Shown here: positions 39,097-59,871 of the stretch, in pieces
How positions within the stretch are numbered: position 1 is the stretch's first letter
How the letters are laid out: each line of letters opens with the position of its first letter
DNA from: an uncultured bacterium
Lineage (GTDB): Bacteria; Patescibacteriota; Minisyncoccia; Phycocordibacterales; DATDWN01
Direction of reading: 5' to 3'
Length of the DNA: 64,000 nucleotides
Assembly (NCBI GenBank): GCA_963727715.1
Contig: CAVSGX010000005.1
Coordinates: 50,672-114,671 of the forward strand
Notes under the pieces: generated by a model
Seen by the model: only the letters and a program-made list of their open reading frames with translations
Told to the model about the DNA's origin: nothing
Databases searched by the model: none
Program-made: the position numbers and the translations under genes

Positions 39097-39555
39097 ATGA
39101 AAAATAATAAAGGTTTTACGATTATTGAACTTCTGGTGGTTGCGGCCATTGTAGCTTTGATGGCGTCGGTTGTTTTTGCCGCTATGCGAGGCGCTGCAAA
39201 CAAAGGCAGTAATTCCACCATCAAGGGAGATATGCATTTTGTTCGTCAACAAGCGGCTTTGGTTTACGATAATGCCGGGGGCAAATATGACAACATTTGT
39301 GCCGATGCCACCATACAAAGAAGTATGGTTTCCATACAAAACGCCAGTAGCGCCACAAATGCCAATAACTATGCAATTGGAACAGGTGGCTCGGCGGGCA
39401 CGGTCACTTGTCATTCTAGCTCTTCCGGTTGGGCTGTTGAATCTCCTCTAAAAGTAGCCGAAGGTTCTAATACTTTCTGGTGCGACGATTGGGCTGGGAC
39501 TTCCAAAGGCGAAGTTGGCTCCACGCTTACAGCCAACACGGTAACTTGCCCGTAA
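39097..39555 (+). CDS. Type IV pilin (leader MKNNKG|FTIIELLVV)
   Basis: Class III signal peptide with a G-1/F+1/E+5 cleavage motif. Confidence 0.75.
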   Translation: MKNNKGFTIIELLVVAAIVALMASVVFAAMRGAANKGSNSTIKGDMHFVRQQAALVYDNAGGKYDNICADATIQRSMVSIQNASSATNANNYAIGTGGSAGTVTCHSSSSGWAVESPLKVAEGSNTFWCDDWAGTSKGEVGSTLTANTVTCP

Positions 39556-39565
39556 AGTTTACCCG

Positions 39566-39628
39566 CACACTAAGTTTGCCATTGTGTTTTTTCAAAACAC
39601 AGGGCAAAGTGATGGCAAACTTAGTGTG
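39566..39628 (+). promoter_or_regulatory. 17-bp perfect inverted repeat (cacactaagtttgccat / atggcaaacttagtgtg) forming a long hairpin between two pilin genes
   Basis: Degenerate member of the pilin-start inverted-repeat family; probable terminator/attenuator. Confidence 0.5.
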
Positions 39629-39775
39629 TAGGTTTATCCACAGTGGCATATTAGCCAATTTTTTGACTGGCTGTATAATGTAATCACTCGTTTTTAGACA
39701 AACGACAATCTCTCCAAGAGAAGGTCGAAAGCAAATTATAAGAAGTTATTATTAATAGTTTTAAATAAAAATTAT

Positions 39776-40207
39776 ATGAATAGAAGAGGTTTTACTTTAA
39801 TTGAACTTTTGGTGGTTATCGCCATCATTGGTATCTTGTCATCAATCGTTTTGGCATCGCTTAACACAGCCAGAGGCAAGGGTTCTGATGCTGCGGCCAA
39901 AGAGAACCTAAACAACATGCGCGCTCAAGCTGAGTTAGTCTACGACTCAAGCGGTCAGTCTTATGCCACAGTTTGCGCAAACACAAACGTTACATCCGCT
40001 CTAACCAGTGCTGGAACAGCTGAAGGTTTTGGTGCATGGTCTGGCACAAGCGCTGCCACTCTCGGGTGCCAGAGTGTCGCAGCCACATGGGTAGCATGGG
40101 TTCGACTGGATAAAGGAGCAGGATCGTCATTTACCTACTGCGCGGATAACACAGGTATGGCCACAACAACTACCACTGGGTATACAACAGCTTCCACAAA
40201 GTGCTAG
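39776..40207 (+). CDS. Type IV pilin (leader MNRRG|FTLIELLVV)
   Basis: Prepilin motif. Confidence 0.75.
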   Translation: MNRRGFTLIELLVVIAIIGILSSIVLASLNTARGKGSDAAAKENLNNMRAQAELVYDSSGQSYATVCANTNVTSALTSAGTAEGFGAWSGTSAATLGCQSVAATWVAWVRLDKGAGSSFTYCADNTGMATTTTTGYTTASTKC

Positions 40208-40235
40208 TTTATTCTTTTGCAGATTTCTCAAAAAA

Positions 40236-40262
40236 CCGGTTTTGGCCGGTTTTTTGTTTTGT
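40236..40262 (+). terminator. Rho-independent terminator (aaaaaaccgg ttttgg ccggtttttt)
   Basis: Hairpin plus T-run after the pilin. Confidence 0.5.
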
Positions 40263-40290
40263 AATTTGTTATAAAGTTGTATAATGTATT

Positions 40291-40419
40291 CGCACACCAA
40301 TTTTGGCATCGTTGCACGGTGTTTTCACAATATAAGCAATTATATTTAAAATAACGAGACATTATTTTGTGATAAATACATAACATGCAACAAAAACACA
40401 ATGCCAAATTTGGTGTGCG
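40291..40419 (+). promoter_or_regulatory. Inverted repeat cgcacaccaattttggcat ... atgccaaatttggtgtgcg (19 bp, about 90-nt spacer) immediately upstream of pilD
   Basis: Member of the repeat family described in the findings. Confidence 0.5.
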
Positions 40420-40428
40420 AATAAATTT

Positions 40429-41265
40429 ATGCTTGGTGTTTTTATTTTTTACGCTTTTGCTCTGGGCGCCATTGTCGGCAGTTATCTCAATGTCGTGGCT
40501 TTGCGTTACGGCACAGAGATGTCGTCATTTAAAGGGCGTTCAATCTGTTTTCACTGTGGTCGAAATTTGAAGTGGTTTGAGATGATTCCAATCTTCAGTT
40601 TTATATTTTTAGGAGGCAAATGCCGGACATGCAAAGCCAGATTGTCTCCGCAGTATTTTTTGGCCGAAATTACCACAGGTATCGTTTTTGTCGGGATTTT
40701 CCTACGCCAATATTATCTGTGGCCGGTCTACTCTGTTTTGTCTCACGGATTTTCGTGGTCAACTTTGTTTTTCTTTTATTATATTGTTGTTTTCTCTCTT
40801 TTGATTATCATGGCTTTGTATGATATTCGGCATAAAATCATCCCGGACAATCTAGTTTACACTTTCATAATTCTATCGGTGGCCAAATTGTTTTTGTTCA
40901 TCTATGTCAAAGGTTTGCCAATCTCCACAATAAATGTTTTTAATTTGTTTTCTCCTCTTATTCTTTCTGTTCCTTTTGCCTTACTCTGGTATTTTTCCCG
41001 TGGCCGATGGCTTGGTTTCGGCGACGCCAAGCTGATTTTCGGCATTGGAGCTCTGCTCGGTTTTGTTTCCGGCTTGTCGGCCGTTACTTTGGCTTTTTGG
41101 CTCGGTAGCATTTGGGTTTTGTTTTTCTGGCTTTACCAACAATTTTCTGGCCGGCCAAGAATCGGCTGGCAATCCGAAATCCCCCTAGCTCCCTTTTTGA
41201 TTTTGGCCGCATTTATTATTTTTCTCTGGCATTTTGATTTCTTTAATCTGAATTTAATATTTTAA
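40429..41265 (+). CDS. pilD: Prepilin peptidase PilD (A24 family)
   Basis: CxxC...CxxC zinc motif followed by a polytopic A24 domain. Confidence 0.85.
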   Translation: MLGVFIFYAFALGAIVGSYLNVVALRYGTEMSSFKGRSICFHCGRNLKWFEMIPIFSFIFLGGKCRTCKARLSPQYFLAEITTGIVFVGIFLRQYYLWPVYSVLSHGFSWSTLFFFYYIVVFSLLIIMALYDIRHKIIPDNLVYTFIILSVAKLFLFIYVKGLPISTINVFNLFSPLILSVPFALLWYFSRGRWLGFGDAKLIFGIGALLGFVSGLSAVTLAFWLGSIWVLFFWLYQQFSGRPRIGWQSEIPLAPFLILAAFIIFLWHFDFFNLNLIF

Positions 41266-41921
41266 TGAAAAATAAGACATCCAAAAAAGGATTTACTCTT
41301 GCGGAAATGGTGATCTGCATAGCTATTGTCGGTGCGATTTCAGCTGTGGCGATGTTCAGTTATACACAATTCAGCGACAATCTGAATTTATCTTCAGCCA
41401 GCCAGGAAATTGCTTTGGAAATTCGTCAAGCCCAAATCTATGGGGTTAGCGTCAAGGAAAATGCCGTGGGTAGTGGTGTTTTTACCAGTGGTTATGGTTT
41501 TCAGGCCAGTCTAAGCGATCCGACCAGCTACTATATTTTCGTTGATTTGAACAATAACGGTAAATATGATGGCGGTCCCAATTGTAGTGCAAGCCCTGAG
41601 TGTGTTGAAAAAATTTCTTTGCGCAACAGTGTTTCAATTACCGGTATTTGTGGCATGGCTTTTGGTGGGGTATCAGTTTCGTGCCCTCTGGACGCGGCTA
41701 TTAAAACAATGAACATAGTCTTTTTACGGCCCGATCCGACTGCCCTGATTCGTTTTTTGAATATTTCCAACAATTTTTACGTTGGGGGCGGAATTTATCA
41801 GCCCAATATCAATTGTCCCACGTGCGGGACTTTCCAAACCGGCCAGATTGTGCTGACCTCTGCCGGAGGTAAAACCGCAAATATTATCATTCAGAATACC
41901 GGTCAAGTATCAATTCAATAA
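41265..41921 (+). CDS. Minor pilin / pseudopilin (leader MKNKTSKKG|FTLAEM)
   Basis: Prepilin N-terminus. Confidence 0.6.
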   Translation: MKNKTSKKGFTLAEMVICIAIVGAISAVAMFSYTQFSDNLNLSSASQEIALEIRQAQIYGVSVKENAVGSGVFTSGYGFQASLSDPTSYYIFVDLNNNGKYDGGPNCSASPECVEKISLRNSVSITGICGMAFGGVSVSCPLDAAIKTMNIVFLRPDPTALIRFLNISNNFYVGGGIYQPNINCPTCGTFQTGQIVLTSAGGKTANIIIQNTGQVSIQ

Positions 41922-41967
41922 AATTTCAATGGTTTTGAAACAAACATCAAAAAAAGAAAAAGGATTT

Positions 41968-42106
41968 ACCCAGACACCAACTTTGGCATTGTTCCGCTTT
42001 TTCAAAAATTTCTATGATAAAATTCAGTCTTTTATAAAAAAAACAAATCACAATACTATTTCCGAGAGCGAAACACAAAAAGCCATGCCAAAGTTGGTGC
42101 CCGGGT
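41968..42106 (+). promoter_or_regulatory. Inverted repeat acccagacaccaactttggcat ... atgccaaagttggtgcccgggt. The 3' arm contains the pilin start codon (MPKLV).
   Basis: Read from the sequence; start codon at 42085. Confidence 0.5.
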
Positions 42107-42630
42107 TTACTTTAGTGGAGCTGATTGTTTCTATCGCTATGTTCAGTGTTGTAATGGTTGTTTGCATGAGTTCTGTTTTGATTATGCTTGATTCCAACCG
42201 CAAGTCCCAAGCCCAGAGAACTTTGGTGGACAATCTAAGCTATTCTCTTGATGAAATATCCAGATCGGCCAGATTCGGCACGGTCTATCATTGTGGAGGT
42301 GGCACATTAAATTTGACTCAAGATTGCCAGGGTGGCGACACTTCTTTTACCGTTTTGGATCAAACTGGAACTCAAGTAACATATAAATTAAGTGGTAATA
42401 GGGTGGCCAAAACAATCGGTGGAGTGGATTATTATTTGACATCGCCTGATGTTACAATCAACAAGTTGTTTTTCTTTGTTATTGGTTCAGATCCATTTTC
42501 CACTGGTAATATACAGCAACCATGGGTGGGAATTATCATAGGTGGTTCTGCGGGGGTTAATACCAACAGCCAATCATCCACCACTTTGGAAACAGTGGTA
42601 TCGCAGAGAAAGTTGGATATATATAATTGA
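42085..42630 (+). CDS. Minor pilin (leader MPKLVPG|FTLVELIV)
   Basis: Prepilin motif. The track ORF extends upstream from 41929; the short canonical leader is preferred. Confidence 0.55.
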   Translation: MPKLVPGFTLVELIVSIAMFSVVMVVCMSSVLIMLDSNRKSQAQRTLVDNLSYSLDEISRSARFGTVYHCGGGTLNLTQDCQGGDTSFTVLDQTGTQVTYKLSGNRVAKTIGGVDYYLTSPDVTINKLFFFVIGSDPFSTGNIQQPWVGIIIGGSAGVNTNSQSSTTLETVVSQRKLDIYN

Positions 42631-42670
42631 TATGTTTAACAAAAAAGGAAAAAAATTAAAATCTGGGTTT

Positions 42671-42813
42671 ACCCACACACCAACTTTGGCATTATTCCGC
42701 TTTTTCAATAGATTTTTCTACAAATTCTAATTTACAATGAAAAAAATAAATTTTATTAAAATATTTCGGGGCGGAACACAAAAAGCTATGCCAAAGTTGG
42801 TGTCTGGGTTTAC
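42671..42813 (+). promoter_or_regulatory. Inverted repeat acccacacaccaactttggcat ... atgccaaagttggtgtctgggt. The 3' arm contains the pilin start codon.
   Basis: Read from the sequence; start codon at 42788. Confidence 0.5.
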
Positions 42814-43360
42814 ACTAGTAGAGGCCCTTGTGGCCATCGGCATTTTATCGTTATCGGTTATGGCTGCCTCTATGGCTGTTCAAAGCAGTTTATCATCCTC
42901 ATACTACGCCAGAGATCAAGTGACCGCTTTTTATTTGATTCAAGATGCGGTTGAATATGTAAGAAATCTTCGGGATATCAACGCCCTAAGAAATGCCAAA
43001 GTTATCGCCGCTGGCCCTGGGACGGTTGATTGGCTCAATGGCATATCCCAAGTTCCTGCTGACCCCTGCTATTTCGGCAAATTTTGTATGGTAAGTCCCG
43101 CAGAAATAAGCCCCAACAACTTAGTTACCTGTGGCGACGGTAGCTCAAGCAGTCTTTGCAGTCCTATCAGACAAGATAATGCCACCGGTAAATTTGGCTA
43201 TCTCAATTCAAATTGGCCACAAACCAAATTCACAAGATTTATGCAAATCAGCCAGAGTTCTACTACCGAAATCATTTTAACCATCACAGTCACCTGGAAA
43301 GACAATGCTATTGGCAATACCAGTGTTTCTGTTCAAGAATGGTTGCGTAATACCAGATGA
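42788..43360 (+). CDS. Minor pilin, PilV-like (leader MPKLVSG|FTLVEALV)
   Basis: Prepilin motif. Confidence 0.55.
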   Translation: MPKLVSGFTLVEALVAIGILSLSVMAASMAVQSSLSSSYYARDQVTAFYLIQDAVEYVRNLRDINALRNAKVIAAGPGTVDWLNGISQVPADPCYFGKFCMVSPAEISPNNLVTCGDGSSSSLCSPIRQDNATGKFGYLNSNWPQTKFTRFMQISQSSTTEIILTITVTWKDNAIGNTSVSVQEWLRNTR

Positions 43361-43373
43361 TAGAAAAATTAAA

Positions 43374-45916
<2,543 letters not shown>

Positions 45917-55762: not shown

Positions 55763-56071
55763 GCGGGGCCTAGACTTGCACTAGGGTTTCAAGGTTATGC
55801 TTTACCGCTACGGTTTTCACCGCTTGTCATCTTATTATGACGGAAAATTTGTGGTCTGGACTATACCATCTCCTTTTTTCAAAATAATTTGAAAGTCAGG
55901 AGTTCACCATCTAGTCTCTACACTTTTATCGCGAATAAACCGCGAATTTAGCTCGGGATTGTCCTCCATTTGGATGGATAGGATTTCCCCGAATTTGGCG
56001 AATGCGCATCTTGTTGTTTCCAACAAGAGGGCCCAACTTGAGCCTTACGAGTTACTGCTACTCCACCCCGC
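55763..56071 (-). ncRNA. rnpB: Candidate RNase P RNA (bacterial type A-like, about 310 nt)
   Basis: On the minus strand: a terminal P1 pairing gcgggg/ccccgc. GGAGGACAAUCCCGAGC resembles GAGGAAAGUCCGGGC (CR-I). GGUGAAAACCGUAGCGGUAAAG resembles GGUGAAANGGUGCGGUAAGAG (CR-II/III). GAAACCCUAG resembles GAACCCGGC (CR-V). Confidence 0.4.
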
Positions 56072-56166: not shown

Positions 56167-56850
56167 ATGCACAGTCCAAATATAAAATACAAAGCGAAAA
56201 AGATGCGTGAAAATGGTACAAGTATCGGTGATATCTCAATAGGGCTCGGTGTCAACAAATCAACCGTCAGTTACTGGTGTAAAAACATAGAACTGAAAGA
56301 ATCCGCCATACAAAAAATCAAAACAAAAGGCAGAGAAAAATCCATACGAGGACTTTTGCGTTATTCAGAATTGAAAAGGAAAGAAAGGATTGATAGGAAT
56401 TACAAACAAAAACAGGATGGAGCCGATTTTGTCGGTAATATTTCAAAGAGAGATGTTTTAATGACTGGGCTAGGACTTTATTGGGGGGAAGGATACAAGG
56501 AAGGAGAGCTAGGTTTTACTAACAGCAATCCCAAAATCATACAATTTTATTTAACGTGGCTTCAAATATTTAACATCTCCAAATCCGATCTCATATTTCG
56601 TTTGACTATAAACCAAATTTTTAAACCGCAGGAAAAACAAATCAAGAGGTTTTGGCTAGATCTTTTAGATGTCAAAGACGATCAATTTTCCAAAATTACA
56701 AGAATAAAAACTAAACTAAAGAAAGCTTTTTTGAAAGACAGTCAGACATACAGGGGTATTTTAAGAGTCAAGGTGAGAAGGGGGATGTCACTGAAAAATA
56801 AAATTCTTGGGGCTATAGACCACATTTCAGATAGGGCAAATATTGTTTAA
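56167..56850 (+). CDS. LAGLIDADG-like homing endonuclease-family protein with an N-terminal HTH
   Basis: GLGLYWGEGYKEGELGF resembles the LAGLIDADG/LAGxxDGDG motif. HTH SIGLGVNKSTVSYWCKN. Confidence 0.35.
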   Translation: MHSPNIKYKAKKMRENGTSIGDISIGLGVNKSTVSYWCKNIELKESAIQKIKTKGREKSIRGLLRYSELKRKERIDRNYKQKQDGADFVGNISKRDVLMTGLGLYWGEGYKEGELGFTNSNPKIIQFYLTWLQIFNISKSDLIFRLTINQIFKPQEKQIKRFWLDLLDVKDDQFSKITRIKTKLKKAFLKDSQTYRGILRVKVRRGMSLKNKILGAIDHISDRANIV

Positions 56851-56880: not shown

Positions 56881-56954
56881 GTCGGCATAGCTCAGGCAGT
56901 TAGAGCGGGCGTTTCATAAGCGCCAGGTCCCAAGTGCAACTCTTGGTGCCGACA
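56881..56954 (+). tRNA. tRNA with CAT anticodon (Met or Ile2), atypical T-loop
   Basis: Acceptor gtcggca/tgccgac, D-arm gctcaggcagttagagc, anticodon loop ttCATaa. Confidence 0.6.
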
Positions 56955-57008
56955 CAGAATTTTGCGAATGAATGAAAAGTTTGGTATATTTGGTCTGTCA
57001 ATAAAAAT

Positions 57009-57083
57009 GCGGTCGTAGCTTAGTTGGTTCAAAGCGCCACCCTGTCACGGTGGAGATCGCCGGTTCAAGTCCGGTCGGCCGCG
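57009..57083 (+). tRNA. tRNA-Asp (GTC)
   Basis: Acceptor gcggtcg/cggccgc, anticodon loop ctGTCac, T-arm gccggttcaagtccggt. Confidence 0.8.
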
Positions 57084-57228
57084 CTGATGAAAAAATATCC
57101 CTATAATTAGGGATATTTTTTATGCGACTGATTGGACGGTAGAACCAAAAATAAAAGTATGCTTGACAAAAATATCAAAAGATGATAAGCTTATTATGGC
57201 AGTTCATTTCAGATAAGGAGAACGAAAA

Positions 57229-57903
57229 ATGGGACAAATCACAGCTGACCAATCCCAACAGATTATGGCGCTTCTTTCCACGAATGTGGACTGGAGCAAA
57301 ATCGACTTCGAAGCGCTGGACTTGCAAAACTCGGTTGTGCTCAAAGCCACCGAGGCTGGTCAACAGTTCGAAGCCTTCCTGAAAAATCGTTGCCGACTAA
57401 TCGTCGGCGAGCCGAAAGTCATCACCATAGACCGCACCGCACCATTCAACCCCGCCGAGTTCATCGGTGCCGGTTGGAAATTCTGGCTCGGTCCGGCGGA
57501 CGGCGATGGTCTCTCCGGAGAGCTTGAGCAAGACAGCCGCTCTCTCGCTCTGACCGAGGTGGACGTAACCAAGATTTTCTTGGAAGTTCATCTCAAAAAG
57601 AGCGAGACCAGTACGACCGGCGAAGAACGCCTCAAGCGTCTCATCGCAACCAACCGCGTTCGTCTCGATCTAGGAGTTTTCAAAACACTCTGGGACAACA
57701 AGGCGCTCATACCGGCCAGCTGGAAGGAGAAGACGGGTGGCAACACCACCTACATATTCTTCGATGGTCAGATTCTTCGCAGTCCGGACGGCCGGCGGTA
57801 CACGCTGTACCTCTACTGGGACGGCGGCGAGTGGCGCTGGCTTGTGTACTGGCTCGACATCAGCCGGCACGCCAACGATCCGTCCGCGGTTCTCGCAAGT
57901 TAG
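57229..57903 (+). CDS. DGR target protein (C-type lectin-fold-like variable protein). The gene is about 57% GC in a roughly 38% GC genome.
   Basis: The C-terminal 41 codons form the VR, and the gene ends four codons after the VR. Confidence 0.8.
   Translation: MGQITADQSQQIMALLSTNVDWSKIDFEALDLQNSVVLKATEAGQQFEAFLKNRCRLIVGEPKVITIDRTAPFNPAEFIGAGWKFWLGPADGDGLSGELEQDSRSLALTEVDVTKIFLEVHLKKSETSTTGEERLKRLIATNRVRLDLGVFKTLWDNKALIPASWKEKTGGNTTYIFFDGQILRSPDGRRYTLYLYWDGGEWRWLVYWLDISRHANDPSAVLAS
57775..57897 (+). repeat. DGR variable repeat (VR), 123 bp
   Basis: Matches the TR at 58317-58439 except at 15 positions. Every one is an A in the TR and a non-A in the VR. Confidence 0.85.
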
Positions 57904-57912
57904 TTCTTGGGA

Positions 57913-57950
57913 CTGAGGTCACTTGGTTCTCTTTGAACCTTTGACCTCAG
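57913..57950 (+). promoter_or_regulatory. Hairpin (ctgaggtca ... tgacctcag) 16 nt downstream of the VR; candidate DGR homing hairpin/cruciform next to the IMH
   Basis: 9-bp perfect stem right after the GC-rich VR 3' end. Confidence 0.45.
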
Positions 57951-58316
57951 ACCTTTGATTCGCATTTTGAATCTCAACTGTGTGGGGCAGTAACCCATAG
58001 CTCTGCATTGTCACTTCGGTGGCGGCGCAGGGCTTTTTCTTTTGTATTAATTTTGATAAACTAAAAACGGTAGTAGGTGAATATGCGGACGACTAAGGTT
58101 TTCCGCTACCGAATCCAGTATCCATACATCCAGAATATCCGCGACTAAGGTTTTGGATAGCGCGGTGTATGCAGAAACTTCAAAAAATGAAGATACTTGG
58201 TCTGGAGCGCTAACGCATTAACCAAAGTAGGTTATTCTACTGAATGAGATGCGGAATACGGTTCAACCCCGAGATATTTCAAAGGGTGGTGGCCTTGGAT
58301 GGCGCTCCATACATAA

Positions 58317-58439
58317 CTTCGCAGTCCGAACGGCAAGCGGTACACGCTGTACCTCTACTGGAACGACGGCAAGTGGAACTGGAATGTGAACTGGCTCGAC
58401 AACAACCGGAACGCCAACAATCCGTCCGCGGTTCTCGCA
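58317..58439 (+). repeat. DGR template repeat (TR), rich in AAC/AAT codons
   Basis: See the VR entry. Encodes NGKRYTLYLYWNDGKWNWNVNWLDNNRNANNPSAV in the VR frame. Confidence 0.85.
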
Positions 58440-58446
58440 GCTCTCT

Positions 58447-58845
58447 TCATTTCTCTCCGGACTTTTTGTCCGGAGAGTTTTGTTTTGCCAACTGTGTCAT
58501 TATTTGTCCTTGCCATCCACCAAGCATCTTGCCTATGTCATCAATCTTGAGCGACAGAGCGATATACTTTTTGTCGTCAATGGATTTTGTCTCCCACAAA
58601 ACCATCAGCAATATTCGCAAAGTGTCCACTTTTCGCACAGCCAAACGAACATACGGTTGTTTTTCAGCGGGGGAGAGAAAACTGGCTATGGAAATTGCTT
58701 CAATACTTTCCACAAATAAATTGTCAATACGCAAACCCAGCGAATGCCTGTGCAGTTTCGGCAAAATTTGGTAAAAGGAGTACCATAGCAGATACACTTC
58801 TTTCAATTTTTGTAACAATGGTAATATGCGGGGGGGGGGCAACAT
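58447..58845 (-). CDS. avd: DGR accessory variability determinant (Avd, four-helix-bundle family). It lies antisense to the TR-RT strand and has a G10/C10 tract at codons 3-5.
   Basis: The pattern matches the four-helix-bundle family (YQILPKLHRHSLGLRIDNLFVESIEAISIA ... IDDIGKMLGGW). The homopolymer spans 58830-58839. Confidence 0.7.
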   Translation of the reverse strand: MLPPPRILPLLQKLKEVYLLWYSFYQILPKLHRHSLGLRIDNLFVESIEAISIASFLSPAEKQPYVRLAVRKVDTLRILLMVLWETKSIDDKKYIALSLKIDDIGKMLGGWQGQIMTQLAKQNSPDKKSGEK

Positions 58846-58890
58846 TGGTAGTCATTTTTGTGTTGTAATTATAATAATTTTTACTATATC

Positions 58891-59871
58891 ATGAATCAAC
58901 CAACATTTGAAGAAATTATTTCTCTGGAAAATTTACTTCTGGCGTGGAAGGAATTTATTGTCGGTAAAAAATCCAGAAAAGATGTGCAGGAGTTTGAGCA
59001 GTGTTTAATGAAAAATATTATTTCACTTCATACGGATTTGAAAAACAAAACCTATATTCACGGCGGTTACTATGCTTTCAATATTTCCGACCCGAAACCG
59101 CGCGATATTCACAAAGCCAGTGTTCGGGATAGACTGCTTCATCACGCCCTGTATAGAATACTTTATCCATTTTTTGACAAAAAGTTTATCGCCGATTCTT
59201 ATTCATGCAGATTGGACAAAGGAACATATAAAGCGCTTGAGACATTCCAAAAGTTTTTATACAAGGTTTCAAAAAATCAGACAAAAACCGTTTGGATACT
59301 AAAATGCGATGTCAGAAAATTTTTCGCGTCAATCGACCAAAAAATTTTAATAGAAATATTGGCTAAATATATTTCTGACAAAAATATCGTCTGGCTGTTG
59401 TCCAAAATTATCCAAAGTTTTCACTCAACCCAAAAAGATGTCGGTTTGCCACTCGGTAACCTAACCTCGCAGTTATTGGTCAATATTCATATGAATGAGT
59501 TTGACCAGTTTATGAAGCACAGAATAAAGGCAAAATATTATATCCGCTATGCCGATGATTTTGTCATATTTTCAACCGACAAAATCGAACTTAAAAATAT
59601 TTTATTCCGAATCAATAGTTTTTTACTGACTAGATTAAAACTTACACTTCATCCCGACAAAGTTTTTATCAAGACCATTGGCTCTGGCATGGATTTTCTC
59701 GGATGGGTTAATTTTCCAGATCACAGAGTTTTGCGTACTGTCACTAAAAAAAGGATGTTCAGAAATATAAAATTAAAAGACGGCAAAAGAGAAACGGTTC
59801 AATCATATTTTGGATTGCTTGGCCACGGAAATGGTAAAAAACTTACAAATGAGGTCAACCAACTTTTATAA
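58891..59871 (+). CDS. DGR reverse transcriptase
   Basis: RT motifs ADSYSCRLDKG, LKCDVRKFFASID, LPLGNLTSQLLVNIHM (the DGR-specific I/LGxxxSQ motif) and IRYADDFVIFS (YxDD). Confidence 0.85.
   Translation: MNQPTFEEIISLENLLLAWKEFIVGKKSRKDVQEFEQCLMKNIISLHTDLKNKTYIHGGYYAFNISDPKPRDIHKASVRDRLLHHALYRILYPFFDKKFIADSYSCRLDKGTYKALETFQKFLYKVSKNQTKTVWILKCDVRKFFASIDQKILIEILAKYISDKNIVWLLSKIIQSFHSTQKDVGLPLGNLTSQLLVNIHMNEFDQFMKHRIKAKYYIRYADDFVIFSTDKIELKNILFRINSFLLTRLKLTLHPDKVFIKTIGSGMDFLGWVNFPDHRVLRTVTKKRMFRNIKLKDGKRETVQSYFGLLGHGNGKKLTNEVNQLL

What the first reader, a model, noticed from the sequence alone, without database searches (positions are those of the whole stretch)
57229..59871. Complete diversity-generating retroelement with an inverted Avd gene
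A 123-bp template repeat (58317-58439) and a variable repeat at the 3' end of the ORF at 57229-57903 differ at exactly 15 positions. Every difference is an adenine in the TR replaced by G, C or T in the VR. This is the signature of adenine-specific mutagenic retrohoming. The TR is built from AAC/AAT codons, so variation lands on first and second codon positions of a C-type lectin-like YxLYLYW...W.W scaffold. The adjacent reverse transcriptase carries the DGR-diagnostic LGNLTSQ motif in place of QGxxSP. An Avd four-helix-bundle gene is present but lies on the opposite strand, between the TR and the RT. Any TR-RT co-transcript would therefore be antisense to avd, which is not the usual target-avd-TR-RT layout. 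A 9-bp hairpin sits 16 nt downstream of the VR, where the IMH-associated hairpin is expected. The target gene is about 57% GC while avd, the RT and the surrounding genome are about 38% GC. That suggests the target was acquired or constrained separately from the element.
Basis: seen in the sequence. Interest (0 to 1): 0.9.

Follow-up and report, generated by a model that had tools for sequence, protein, structure and literature searches.

The report
CPR-type diversity-generating retroelement, standard layout
This is a complete, apparently active diversity-generating retroelement of the type already known to be typical of tiny "candidate phyla radiation" bacteria (reversed avd gene included), but its lineage turns out to carry a conserved structured RNA in front of the template and a slippery poly-C tract in avd that I did not find described.

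Summary
TR 58317-58439 and VR 57775-57897 are 123 bp and differ at 15 positions. All 15 are TR adenines at codon positions 1 or 2 (p ~ 8e-11). RT, Avd and a C-terminal VR are present.

The "inverted avd" is not unusual. It is architecture B3, TR-(avd)-RT, of Wu et al. 2018, found in 90% of CPR DGRs. Eighteen GTDB genomes carry the same whole cassette, and more than 50 metagenome contigs carry the RNA-(avd)-RT core.

The high GC of the target is real; its GC3 of 0.68 is the highest of 57 window ORFs. It is family-wide, so it does not show recent separate acquisition here.

Three lineage features bear on the mechanism:
- The VR-TR "spacer" has an extended -10 promoter and a ~250-nt structured leader with strong covariation and no Rfam match.
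- A 9-bp leader:3'-flank duplex brackets the TR. A covarying hairpin plus U-tract, terminator-like, overlaps the avd stop and tail codons. No TR-RT co-transcript is therefore required.
- A poly-C tract (C10 here, 58830-58839) sits at the avd 5' end in 68 of 85 relatives. The start codon is in frame in only 18, which suggests slippage-based switching.

Verdict: new member of a known kind, with under-described lineage features.

The parts
57229..57903 (+). Target (variable protein) gene, 224 aa. It has an N-terminal helical region and a C-terminal beta-rich domain that carries the VR.
57775..57897 (+). Variable repeat (VR). The GC-rich IMH-like 3' end is at about 57878-57897.
   Evidence: 123 bp, with 15 of 15 mismatches at TR adenines.
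57910..57953 (+). Inverted repeat or nested hairpin downstream of the VR, in the position of the DGR target-site hairpin/cruciform.
   Evidence: Comparable nested hairpins occur in about half of the relatives.
58000..58045 (+). Imperfect GC-rich hairpin plus T-run. Likely terminator of the target gene.
   Evidence: Read from the sequence. A hairpin plus T-run also precedes the TR-RNA promoter in the relatives. The consensus scan did not call it.
58054..58062 (+). Extended -10 promoter-like element (TG-A-TAAACT), 6 nt upstream of the leader start.
   Evidence: A conserved TGnTAAAAT-like motif lies at a fixed distance in 19 cassettes. This is an inference; no transcript data are available.
58069..58316 (+). 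Conserved structured 5' leader domain of the TR RNA. It has several covarying helices and two hairpins that share the motif CGACTAAGGTTTT.
   Evidence: 38 of 53 pairs carry compensatory changes; 95.8% of cells are paired, against 41-55% in slid controls. The covariance model scores 221 bits here. In an independent set of 54 metagenome copies, 47 of 53 pairs are compensatory. No Rfam family matches.
58185..58193 (+). Leader strand (AAAUGAAGA) of the long-range duplex. It is followed by the nearly invariant UACUUGG.
   Evidence: Helix 6. Covariation is seen in 36 distinct loci.
58317..58439 (+). Template repeat (TR).
58444..58452 (+). 3'-flank strand (UCUUCAUUU) of the long-range duplex. It contains the avd stop codon (TCA on the + strand = TGA).
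   Evidence: In L003, L031 and L133 the stop codon changes from TGA to TAA and the leader carries the matching G-to-A change.
58453..58486 (+). 10-bp hairpin plus UUUUGUUUU. It is an intrinsic-terminator-like end of the TR RNA and probably corresponds to the Avd-binding stem-loop. It overlaps the codons of the Avd C-terminal tail.
   Evidence: Called as a terminator. It is present, with compensatory stem changes, in all cassettes (helix 11, 71). Handa et al. predicted such stem-loops just downstream of the TR.
58447..58845 (-). avd accessory gene, 132 aa counted from ATG 58845. An upstream ATG at 58855 is in another frame.
   Evidence: Orthologues of 38-76% identity lie in the same place and orientation.
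58830..58839 (-). G10 on the + strand, which is C10 in avd codons 3-6. Candidate slippage tract.
   Evidence: It is the only G/C run of 7 or more in the 64-kb window. A tract of 8-12 is present in 68 of 85 related avd genes, and only 18 of those have an in-frame ATG upstream.
58891..59871 (+). DGR reverse transcriptase, 326 aa.
   Evidence: RVT_1 at E 1.6e-21. LGNLTSQ and YADD are present. The best solved relative is 8ub7, a 328-aa 'Reverse transcriptase' that I take to be Bordetella bRT, at E 2e-54, against 3e-30 for group II intron RTs.

Best explanation
This is a chromosomal, complete and probably recently active diversity-generating retroelement of the CPR/Patescibacteria lineage, with the architecture target - TR - (avd) - RT (B3).

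Shown:
- An adenine-specific TR/VR pair at the 3' end of a conserved 224-aa target gene.
- A DGR-clade RT and an Avd homologue.
- The same cassette in many other genomes.
- A conserved, covarying ~250-nt RNA domain directly 5' of the TR.
- A covarying 9-bp duplex between that leader and the 9 nt that follow the TR.
- A covarying hairpin plus U-tract immediately after that duplex.
- A conserved poly-C tract at the avd 5' end.

Inferred:
- The locus has four transcription units. These are the target (+), a free-standing TR RNA of about 420 nt (about 58069-58486, +), avd (-) and RT (+). The last two are transcribed divergently.
- The RT-Avd complex binds the TR RNA through the leader domain and the post-TR stem-loop. 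The leader:flank duplex brings the 3' end of the TR next to the invariant GAUACUUGG segment.
- cDNA is cis-primed there and copied with misincorporation opposite A. The cDNA then replaces the VR, guided by the GC-rich IMH-like end and the downstream hairpin.
- The result is recoding of up to 23 VR codons that contain a template adenine, 12 of them AAC, AAT or AAG codons, on a C-type-lectin-like surface.
- Avd supply, and with it mutagenesis, is probably gated by length changes in the poly-C tract.
For: TR/VR statistics are. There is no non-A mismatch in 123 bp, which argues for recent activity.

The nearest solved structure is 8ub7, taken to be Bordetella bRT, at E 2e-54.

Architecture B3 is documented as the CPR norm. 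The identical cassette occurs in 18 GTDB genomes, with A-specific mismatches in each.

Leader RNA. There are 28 and 54 covariance-model hits. In the genome loci every hit lies between the target and TR-(avd)-RT on the same strand, and there is none in target-only loci. In the metagenome loci every hit lies on the RT strand, all but one 550-800 nt upstream of the RT.

The long-range duplex covaries.

Handa et al. (bioRxiv 10.1101/2023.10.23.563531) predicted a post-TR Avd-binding stem-loop and an upstream:downstream duplex in 207 of 278 DGRs, including CPR ones. This fits both elements found here.

The poly-C tract is documented.
Against: There are no transcript, read-level or biochemical data. 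Promoter, terminator, priming site and activity are all inferred.

Both Avd family scores are below the curated cut-offs (39.1 against 40; 58.4 against 80).

The U-tract after the hairpin also encodes Avd tail residues (KQN), so its conservation is confounded with coding constraint.

The 3-bp pairing of the leader with the TR 3' end is invariant and therefore uninformative.

In the window itself an in-frame ATG (58845) lies two codons upstream of the tract, so avd may be 'on' here whatever the state of the first ATG.
Confidence: 0.8

Rival explanations
1. The reversed avd is a rare or novel rearrangement that creates an unusual antisense conflict with a TR-RT co-transcript.
For: [quoted passage not shown] The best-studied DGRs (Bordetella, Legionella) are co-directional.
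Against: Wu et al. 2018 define TR-(avd)-RT as B3, which makes up 90% of the CPR set. The layout is conserved in every related cassette examined. The TR has its own promoter-like and terminator-like elements.
Confidence: 0.03
2. The target gene, with or without the TR, was recently acquired by horizontal transfer from a GC-richer donor and then coupled to a resident avd-RT module.
For: The target is 56% GC with GC3 0.68, against 34-42% GC and GC3 0.36-0.48 for RT and avd. It has the highest GC3 of 57 window ORFs, and ribosomal-protein genes are not GC3-rich. Target and RT distances correlate only moderately, r = 0.41.
Against: The same offset is seen in most relatives across many genomes: mean GC3 is 0.59 for targets against 0.37 for avd and RT. 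The target, leader, TR, avd and RT stay syntenic. The target-RT distance correlation is significant (Mantel p about 0.0015), and avd-RT is only slightly tighter at r = 0.52. A family-wide compositional constraint or bias fits better, although its cause is unexplained.
Confidence: 0.12
3. The post-TR hairpin is only a protein-binding (Avd) stem-loop. Transcription reads through it, and the Sp-like priming domain lies downstream in RNA antisense to avd, as in the Bordetella order avd-TR-Sp. On this reading the 5' leader has another role, such as stability or regulation.
For: In Bordetella the priming adenosine and most scaffold elements are 3' of the TR. Handa et al. analysed 100 nt downstream of the TR in CPR DGRs and reported stem-loops there. 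The U-tract is confounded by avd coding.
Against: The hairpin plus UUUUGUUUU meets the terminator criteria and recurs in most of the relatives inspected. The leader is physically tied to the TR 3' flank by a covarying duplex. The leader has far more covariation than a UTR would need. The region downstream of the hairpin is protein-coding on the other strand.
Confidence: 0.25
4. The poly-C tract in avd is not a switch. It is kept for a polyproline linker, or the frame differences are assembly errors in homopolymers, or the frame is corrected by RNA-polymerase or ribosome slippage so that Avd is always made at a low level.
For: Poly-C reads as proline in every frame. Homopolymers are error-prone in sequencing. 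The three pairs of loci with near-identical flanks have identical tract lengths, so no direct length polymorphism was seen. CCC-C is a known +1-prone context (own knowledge).
Against: CCC is only 24% of Pro codons elsewhere in these genes. Of 68 tract-bearing genes, 50 lack an in-frame ATG, whereas 15 of 17 tract-less genes have one. The frames split 18:23:23, roughly as chance predicts. At the same position other loci carry (CCAG)8, (CA)n or (CT)n repeats, which cannot be explained by proline coding or ribosomal slippage. Of 75 G/C runs of 8 or more in 1.12 Mb, 73 are G runs on the RT strand, which is the avd orientation.
Confidence: 0.35
5. The element is an inactive relic.
For: Activity was not measured. 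More than half of candidate DGRs in surveys are defective. The first avd ATG (58855) is out of frame.
Against: There are zero non-A mismatches over 123 bp, and 15 of 32 adenines are diversified. The RT is intact with its catalytic motifs. avd is intact from ATG 58845. The TR RNA scores among the best covariance-model hits.
Confidence: 0.1

Closest known systems
CPR/DPANN diversity-generating retroelements, architecture B3 TR-(avd)-RT (Wu et al. 2018 NAR, PMC5758913; Paul et al. 2017 Nat Microbiol, the latter not readable here)
   Same: The gene order and the reversed avd are the same. So are the small target with a C-terminal VR, the AAC-rich TR, the host group (the named relatives are Paceibacteria, Nomurabacteria, Yanofskybacteria and Uhrbacteria MAGs) and the chromosomal location.
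   Different: Nothing defining differs; this is a member. I did not find three lineage features described in the papers I could read. These are the conserved 5' leader RNA, the leader:flank duplex with a terminator overlapping the avd tail, and the simple-sequence tract at the avd 5' end.
Bordetella phage BPP-1 DGR (mtd-avd-TR-Sp-brt) and its DGR RNA (Handa et al. 2018 NAR; cryo-EM preprint 10.1101/2023.10.23.563531; Rfam/Weinberg RT-10 motif)
   Same: Shared features are adenine-specific TR-to-VR transfer, an RT with I/LGxxxSQ and YxDD, an Avd partner, a GC-rich IMH-like end with a downstream inverted repeat, a stem-loop immediately 3' of the TR, and a duplex between sequences upstream and downstream of the TR.
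   Different: avd is reversed and overlaps the TR RNA 3' end. [quoted passage not shown] The large structured domain is 5' of the TR rather than 3'. The upstream strand of the duplex lies about 130 nt, not 20 nt or less, before the TR. The target hairpin has a 20-nt loop with a nested stem rather than a tetraloop.
Simple-sequence-repeat contingency loci (poly-G/C phase variation in Neisseria, Campylobacter, Haemophilus, Bordetella)
   Same: A homopolymer of 8-12 lies just after the start codon. Its length differs between relatives and puts the start codon in or out of frame. Different repeat types occur at the same site in different lineages.
   Different: The gated gene is an accessory factor of a mutagenic retroelement, not a surface or restriction-modification gene. 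The hosts are CPR bacteria. Within-population switching has not been shown.
DGR variable proteins with C-type lectin fold (Mtd 1yu0, TvpA 2y3c, TaqVP 5vf4)

Membership tests
Diversity-generating retroelement (DGR) | TR/VR repeat pair whose differences are (almost) only at TR adenines | tested here: met
   123 bp, with 15 of 15 mismatches at A; p = 8e-11.
Diversity-generating retroelement (DGR) | VR inside a protein-coding target, usually at the 3' end, with TR adenines at codon positions 1 and 2 | tested here: met
   The VR ends 6 nt before the stop of ORF 57229-57903. All 15 changes are at codon position 1 or 2.
Diversity-generating retroelement (DGR) | Reverse transcriptase of the DGR clade (motif 4 [I/L/V]GxxxSQ, catalytic YxDD) | tested here: met
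   LGNLTSQ and YADD are present and invariant in 17 relatives. RVT_1 matches at E 1.6e-21. The best PDB relative is 8ub7, taken to be bRT, at E 2e-54 against 3e-30 for group II RTs. No phylogeny was built.
Diversity-generating retroelement (DGR) | Accessory protein Avd | tested here: met
   PF22296 at E 1.2e-9, 39.1 bits (cut-off 40). NF033474 at E 7e-16, 58.4 bits (cut-off 80). Both are significant but below the curated cut-offs. Orthologues keep the same position.
Diversity-generating retroelement (DGR) | IMH / IMH* at the 3' end of VR / TR, and an inverted repeat downstream of the VR | tested here: met
   A GC-rich identical 20 bp (ATCCGTCCGCGGTTCTCGCA) is followed by divergence. The inverted repeat is at 57910-57953. 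Function was not tested.
Diversity-generating retroelement (DGR) | Ongoing mutagenic retrohoming (VR polymorphic at TR-A positions within a population) | not testable with these tools
   No reads are available. Indirect support only: no non-A mismatch, and hypervariable VR columns across homologues.
DGR architecture B3 (Wu et al. 2018) | Core order TR - avd (reverse strand) - RT with no other accessory gene | tested here: met
   Coordinates are, the definition. The same order occurs in 18 genomes.
Bordetella-type DGR RNA (avd 3' end - TR - 140-nt Sp; RT-10 motif) | [quoted passage not shown] | tested here: not met
   The avd stop is 4-32 nt after the TR in the intact cassettes. No Rfam family matches at E up to 10. 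The structured domain is 5' of the TR. The priming site is unknown.
Bordetella-type DGR RNA (avd 3' end - TR - 140-nt Sp; RT-10 motif) | Stem-loop immediately downstream of the TR (Avd-binding), and a duplex between sequences upstream and downstream of the TR (cPRT Stop) | tested here: met
   The hairpin is at 58453-58477, and 6 of 7 counted pairs covary. The duplex pairs 58185-58193 with 58444-58452, with compensatory changes. Equivalence of function is inferred.
C-type lectin-fold DGR variable protein | CLec fold with the VR forming the ligand-binding face | tested here: inconclusive
SSR-mediated phase-variable (contingency) gene | Repeat tract in the 5' coding region, conserved as a tract but variable in length, shifting the start codon in and out of frame among relatives | tested here: met
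   68 of 85 avd genes carry C8-C12. Of these, 18 are in frame and 50 out of frame. Tract-less genes are in frame in 15 of 17 cases. Other repeat types occur at the same site. The genome-wide rarity of such runs is shown.
SSR-mediated phase-variable (contingency) gene | Reversible length changes within a clonal population, with matching on/off expression | not testable with these tools
   No reads or cultures are available. Near-identical loci in two databases had equal lengths.

The most novel reading that the evidence does not exclude
This reading applies to this large CPR DGR lineage, with more than 500 RT relatives in metagenomes. In it the DGR RNA is a free-standing ncRNA of about 420 nt, with its own promoter and terminator.

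The RT/Avd-scaffolding domain, and probably the priming domain, of this RNA lies 5' of the template. That is a permutation of the Bordetella avd-TR-Sp order, and it is what allows avd to be inverted and to overlap the RNA's 3' end.

The whole mutagenesis machine would then be switched on and off stochastically by slippage in a conserved poly-C tract, or another simple-sequence tract, at the start of avd. This would be a contingency switch controlling a targeted hypermutator.
Probability: 0.4. Interest if true: 0.8.

Novelty: new member of a known kind. Interest (0 to 1): 0.55.

Why it matters
As reported, the element is one more CPR DGR. The inverted avd is that lineage's normal layout, so the reported novelty does not hold.

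The value lies in what the comparison shows about the lineage.

First, DGR RNA biology is known almost only from Bordetella. A strongly covarying 5' domain, tied to the template's 3' flank by a duplex, gives a concrete and testable model for cDNA priming in the B3 architecture. That architecture dominates the most DGR-rich part of the tree of life.

Second, a conserved slippery tract that puts avd out of frame in about three quarters of assemblies would mean that many 'defective' CPR DGRs are switched off rather than dead. It would also mean that hypermutation is itself under stochastic control.

Third, the systematic GC3 excess of the target gene is an unexplained compositional signature. It could help in finding DGR targets.

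Tried and rejected
- The look-up of encoding contigs for the window target (P0001) and for its paralogue P0024 found nothing on record. The listing of cluster members gave no names or accessions. The source organism and the second target locus therefore could not be retrieved.
- Paul et al. 2017 (PMC5436926) is not held.
- The afdb50 fold library was unavailable.
- Foldseek against PDB was uninformative. A sequence-profile search of the target against PDB gave only chance hits.
- Host codon bias as the explanation for the target's GC3 was rejected, because ribosomal-protein genes in the window have GC3 of 0.35-0.45.
- A TTG start downstream of the poly-C tract, which would place the tract in a 5' UTR, was rejected. 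In the window and several relatives that Leu codon is TTA, and the next Met is about residue 81.
- Looking for direct tract-length differences between near-identical loci gave only three pairs. In two the flanks are 100% identical, probably the same genome in two collections, and all three pairs have equal tract lengths.
- Looking for a split tRNA around the group I intron by joining flanks and running ARAGORN found none.
- The 3-bp pairing of leader UUG with the TR 3' end is invariant, so it could not be tested by covariation.


Full report
**1. Observation**

The window sequence and an ungapped comparison confirm the repeat. TR 58317-58439 and VR 57775-57897 are 123 bp long at an offset of 542, and identity stops exactly at those ends.

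There are 15 mismatches. Every one is A in the TR, replaced in the VR by G (8), C (4) or T (3). The TR holds 32 A's. The chance that 15 random mismatches all fall on A is about 8e-11.

All 15 lie at codon position 1 or 2 of ORF 57229-57903. In that frame the TR carries 8 AAC, 2 AAT and 2 AAG codons. There is no non-A difference. No other VR-like copy occurs in the window.

The RT is at 58891-59871. It matches RVT_1 at E 1.6e-21 and has GLPLGNLTSQ and YADD, both invariant in 17 relatives. A profile of these RTs hits PDB entry 8ub7, a 328-aa 'Reverse transcriptase' that I take to be Bordetella bRT, at E 2e-54. Group II intron RTs score 3e-30.

The minus-strand ORF 58447-58845 matches Pfam bAvd (E 1.2e-9) and NCBIfam DivGenRetAVD (E 7e-16). 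Both are just under or under the curated cut-offs.

An inverted repeat lies after the VR at 57910-57921 / 57942-57953. Its perfect 9-bp core begins 16 nt after the VR.

GC content is 56.1% for the target, 57.7% for the TR, 42.4% for avd, 34.3% for the RT and 41.3% for the window.

**2. The 'inverted avd' is the norm for this lineage**

Wu et al. 2018 (PMC5758913) define architecture B3 as TR-(avd)-RT with avd on the reverse strand. [quoted passage not shown]

The target protein has 254 homologues. Those with a source name come from CPR/Patescibacteria MAGs.

In 58 loci from species-representative genomes, 18 carry the same whole cassette:
- target (+), then 313-419 nt, then TR (+);
- avd stop (-) 4-32 nt after the TR;
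- RT (+) 31-72 nt after the avd start.

Avd identity to the window is 50-76% and RT identity 56-69%. TR/VR differences are almost exclusively at A in each. A nineteenth locus (L016) keeps the order but has a decayed TR/VR match.

A metagenome scan with the RT profile found more than 500 relatives. The element is therefore a new member of a known, catalogued kind.

**3. The VR-TR 'spacer' is an RNA gene**

Aligning the spacers shows three things in order:
- a hairpin plus T-run, the likely target terminator;
- a conserved extended -10 motif (window TG-A-TAAACT, 58054-58062);
- six nucleotides later, a conserved sequence starting GGTAGTAGGTGAATATGCGG (58069) that runs up to the TR.

RNAalifold on 19 leaders gives 53 pairs, 38 of them with compensatory double changes.

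On the full unit (leader + TR + 3' flank, alignment A3), 95.8% of cells are paired, against 41-55% when partners are slid by 1-3 columns. Compensatory changes occur in 52 of 79 pairs, against 9-19 in the slid controls.

A covariance model built from the leaders finds 28 copies in the genome loci. Nine of these were not used in training. All lie on the target strand, between the target and TR-(avd)-RT. There are none in loci that hold only a target homologue, and exactly one in the window (58069-58312, 221 bits).

In 80 metagenome loci fetched through the RT, the model hits 54, all but one 550-800 nt upstream of the RT. Most of the rest lack upstream sequence. On that independent set 96.1% of cells pair and 47 of 53 pairs show compensatory changes. 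The covariation score is 0.68 against about 0.12 for slid controls.

The RNA also occurs in cassettes with RT identity of 55% or more whose upstream gene shows little or no similarity to this target. It is absent from DGRs on IMG/VR viral contigs with RT identity of 33-47%.

No Rfam 15 family matches, even at E up to 10 on the 461-nt stretch alone. Weinberg's RT-10 motif for the Bordetella spacer is described; whether it is among the Rfam 15 families was not checked. I found no description of this RNA in the papers I could search. Paul et al. 2017 could not be read.

**4. How the leader is tied to the template**

The unpaired, nearly invariant leader segment AAAUGAAGA-UAC-UUGG (58185-58200) is complementary to the 9 nt that follow the TR after a 3-4-nt linker, UCUUCAUUU (58444-58452).

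RNAalifold finds this long-range helix unaided. It covaries. In 36 distinct loci, position 9 is A:U in 27, U:A in 4 and C:G in 3. Position 5 is G:C in 29, A:U in 4 and U:A in 1.

The 3' strand contains the avd stop codon. Where the stop is TAA instead of TGA (L003, L031, L133), the leader has the matching G-to-A change.

Directly after the duplex comes a 10-bp hairpin (58453-58477) followed by UUUUGUUUU. The scan calls it a + strand intrinsic terminator.

It is present in all 19 genome cassettes and in most of the metagenome loci inspected, with fully compensatory stem replacements. One example is TAAAACGCAC / GTGCGTTTTA in L006 (helix 11).

The hairpin lies inside the codons for the last ~10 residues of Avd, beyond the bAvd domain (residues 11-113 of 132). 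The tail sequence of Avd therefore appears to be dictated by the RNA structure.

Handa et al. report that Bordetella Sp forms two adjacent duplexes, one with the TR and one with the upstream avd segment. They also predicted, in 207 of 278 Avd-containing DGRs including CPR ones, a stem-loop just 3' of the TR and an upstream:downstream duplex.

The two elements found here fit those predictions. However, the large structured domain is 5' of the TR. No long non-coding spacer follows the TR, because the avd stop is 4-32 nt after it in the intact cassettes. The upstream duplex strand is about 130 nt before the TR, outside the 40 nt they analysed.

My inference is that the leader plays the role of Sp, a permuted arrangement, and that the RNA ends at the terminator. 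A TR-RT co-transcript antisense to avd would then not be needed. This step is not shown. The alternative, read-through with an Sp-like function in antisense-avd RNA, is kept as a rival.

**5. A slippery tract in avd**

The window has G10 at 58830-58839, which is C10 in avd codons 3-6. It is the only G/C run of 7 or more in 64 kb.

Two ATGs precede it:
- ATG 58855 is out of frame and opens a 43-aa dead-end ORF.
- ATG 58845 is in the avd frame.

Among 85 related avd genes, 68 carry C8-C12 at the same place (14, 16, 23, 12 and 3 genes respectively). Of these:
- 18 have an ATG in the avd frame upstream of the tract;
- 23 have it only in the +1 frame;
- 23 have it only in the +2 frame;
- 4 have it in both wrong frames.

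This is close to a random distribution over frames. In the 17 genes without a tract, 15 have an in-frame ATG.

At the same position four loci carry other repeats: (CCAG)8 in L061, (CA)n in L111 and L089, and (CT)n in L084.

In 1.12 Mb of fetched loci there are 75 G/C runs of 8 or more. Of these, 73 are G runs on the RT strand, which is the orientation of the avd 5' tract, against about 8.5 runs expected from composition. CCC is only 24% of Pro codons elsewhere in these genes.

This is the comparative signature of a simple-sequence contingency locus. Within-population switching cannot be tested here, and near-identical loci had equal tract lengths. RNA-polymerase or ribosomal slippage, or a tolerated 'off' state, remain possible.

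I found no paper linking DGRs or Avd to homopolymers, SSRs or phase variation. Wu et al. simply discarded DGRs with premature stops.

**6. GC anomaly**

The target's GC3 is 0.68 (0.65 outside the VR). The window mean is 0.435 with SD 0.077, so this is the highest of 57 ORFs. Ribosomal-protein genes have GC3 of 0.35-0.45, so host codon adaptation does not explain it.

The excess is family-wide. Mean GC3 is 0.59 for targets outside the VR, against 0.37 for both avd and RT. The excess is small only in the most AT-rich genomes.

Pairwise distances of target and RT correlate (r = 0.41, Mantel p about 0.0015). This is similar to avd against RT (r = 0.52).

Recent separate acquisition in this genome is therefore unlikely. 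A gene-specific bias or constraint exists, and I cannot explain it.

**7. Target protein**

AlphaFold2 with 39 homologues gives pLDDT 91. Foldseek against PDB finds nothing significant.

No Pfam, NCBIfam or PDB sequence match exists.

A paralogue (P0024, 76% identity over 72% of the length) sits on the same 115-kb contig but outside the window. Its VR needs at least two non-A changes relative to this TR, so it may answer to another template.

**8. Verdict**

The interpretation as a DGR is right, but the claimed unusualness is not. The novelty class is new member of a known kind.

The interest score is moderate because of the lineage-level features found: the 5' TR-RNA domain, the terminator overlapping avd, and the SSR in avd. 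These are well supported as sequence facts. They are only inferred as mechanisms.

Noticed in passing
window 58830-58839 (and L001-L142 avd 5' ends): A conserved poly-C tract of 8-12 nt lies just after the avd start codon in 68 of 85 relatives, and the start codon is in frame in only 18 of them. Four loci have (CCAG)8, (CA)n or (CT)n at the same site. This is a candidate phase-variation switch for Avd.
   Followed up: partly
window 58069-58316: The leader contains two hairpins with the same inner motif CGACTAAGGTTTT, at about 58089 and about 58143. The motif is conserved in relatives as GAYYAMGGTTT. They may be duplicated protein-binding modules.
   Followed up: partly
window 58447-58486: The last ~10 codons of avd and its stop codon are embedded in the TR-RNA duplex strand and terminator hairpin. 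The Avd C-terminal tail varies with compensatory stem changes, so RNA structure appears to dictate the peptide.
   Followed up: partly
window 57229-57774: The target gene has the highest GC3 of all 57 window ORFs (0.68, C-ending codons especially). The same excess over avd and RT is seen in most orthologous cassettes. The cause is unknown.
   Followed up: partly
window 55841-56050 (-) and 56167-56850 (+): There is an Rfam group I intron hit (55.2 bits, gathering score 50) with no recognisable host gene; no split tRNA was found by joining the flanks. Next to it on the opposite strand is a 227-aa ORF with a LAGLIDADG-like GLGLYWGEGYK motif and no Pfam or NCBIfam match.
   Followed up: partly
window 56881-56955 and 57009-57084: tRNA-Met(CAT) and tRNA-Asp(GTC) lie directly upstream of the DGR target gene. 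tRNA genes are common integration sites, but no repeat or integrase was looked for.
   Followed up: no
outside the window, same 115,134-bp contig (protein P0024): A second target paralogue (204 aa, 76% identity over the C-terminal 72%) has a different N-terminus. Its VR needs at least two non-adenine changes relative to this TR, so there may be a second template or an old copy. The locus could not be fetched.
   Followed up: partly
L005, L010, L013, L017, L018, L021 and about 25 other genome loci: Many genomes carry a target homologue with no RT, avd or leader RNA within the flank held (up to 8 kb where the contig allows). These are orphan or remote targets. Several records are labelled as non-CPR MAGs (Hanamia, Gammaproteobacteria, a 'delta proteobacterium' with five copies), which may reflect mis-binning or real spread.
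   Followed up: no
L041 8001-12660: Two tandem TR-RNA-(avd)-RT units lie on one contig. The first RT is fragmented. The two avd copies have near-identical 5' regions but C9 against C8 tracts.
   Followed up: partly
window 39097-43892: A cluster of small ORFs has type IV prepilin-like N-termini (for example KGFTLIELLVV). This was seen only in ORF translations.
   Followed up: no
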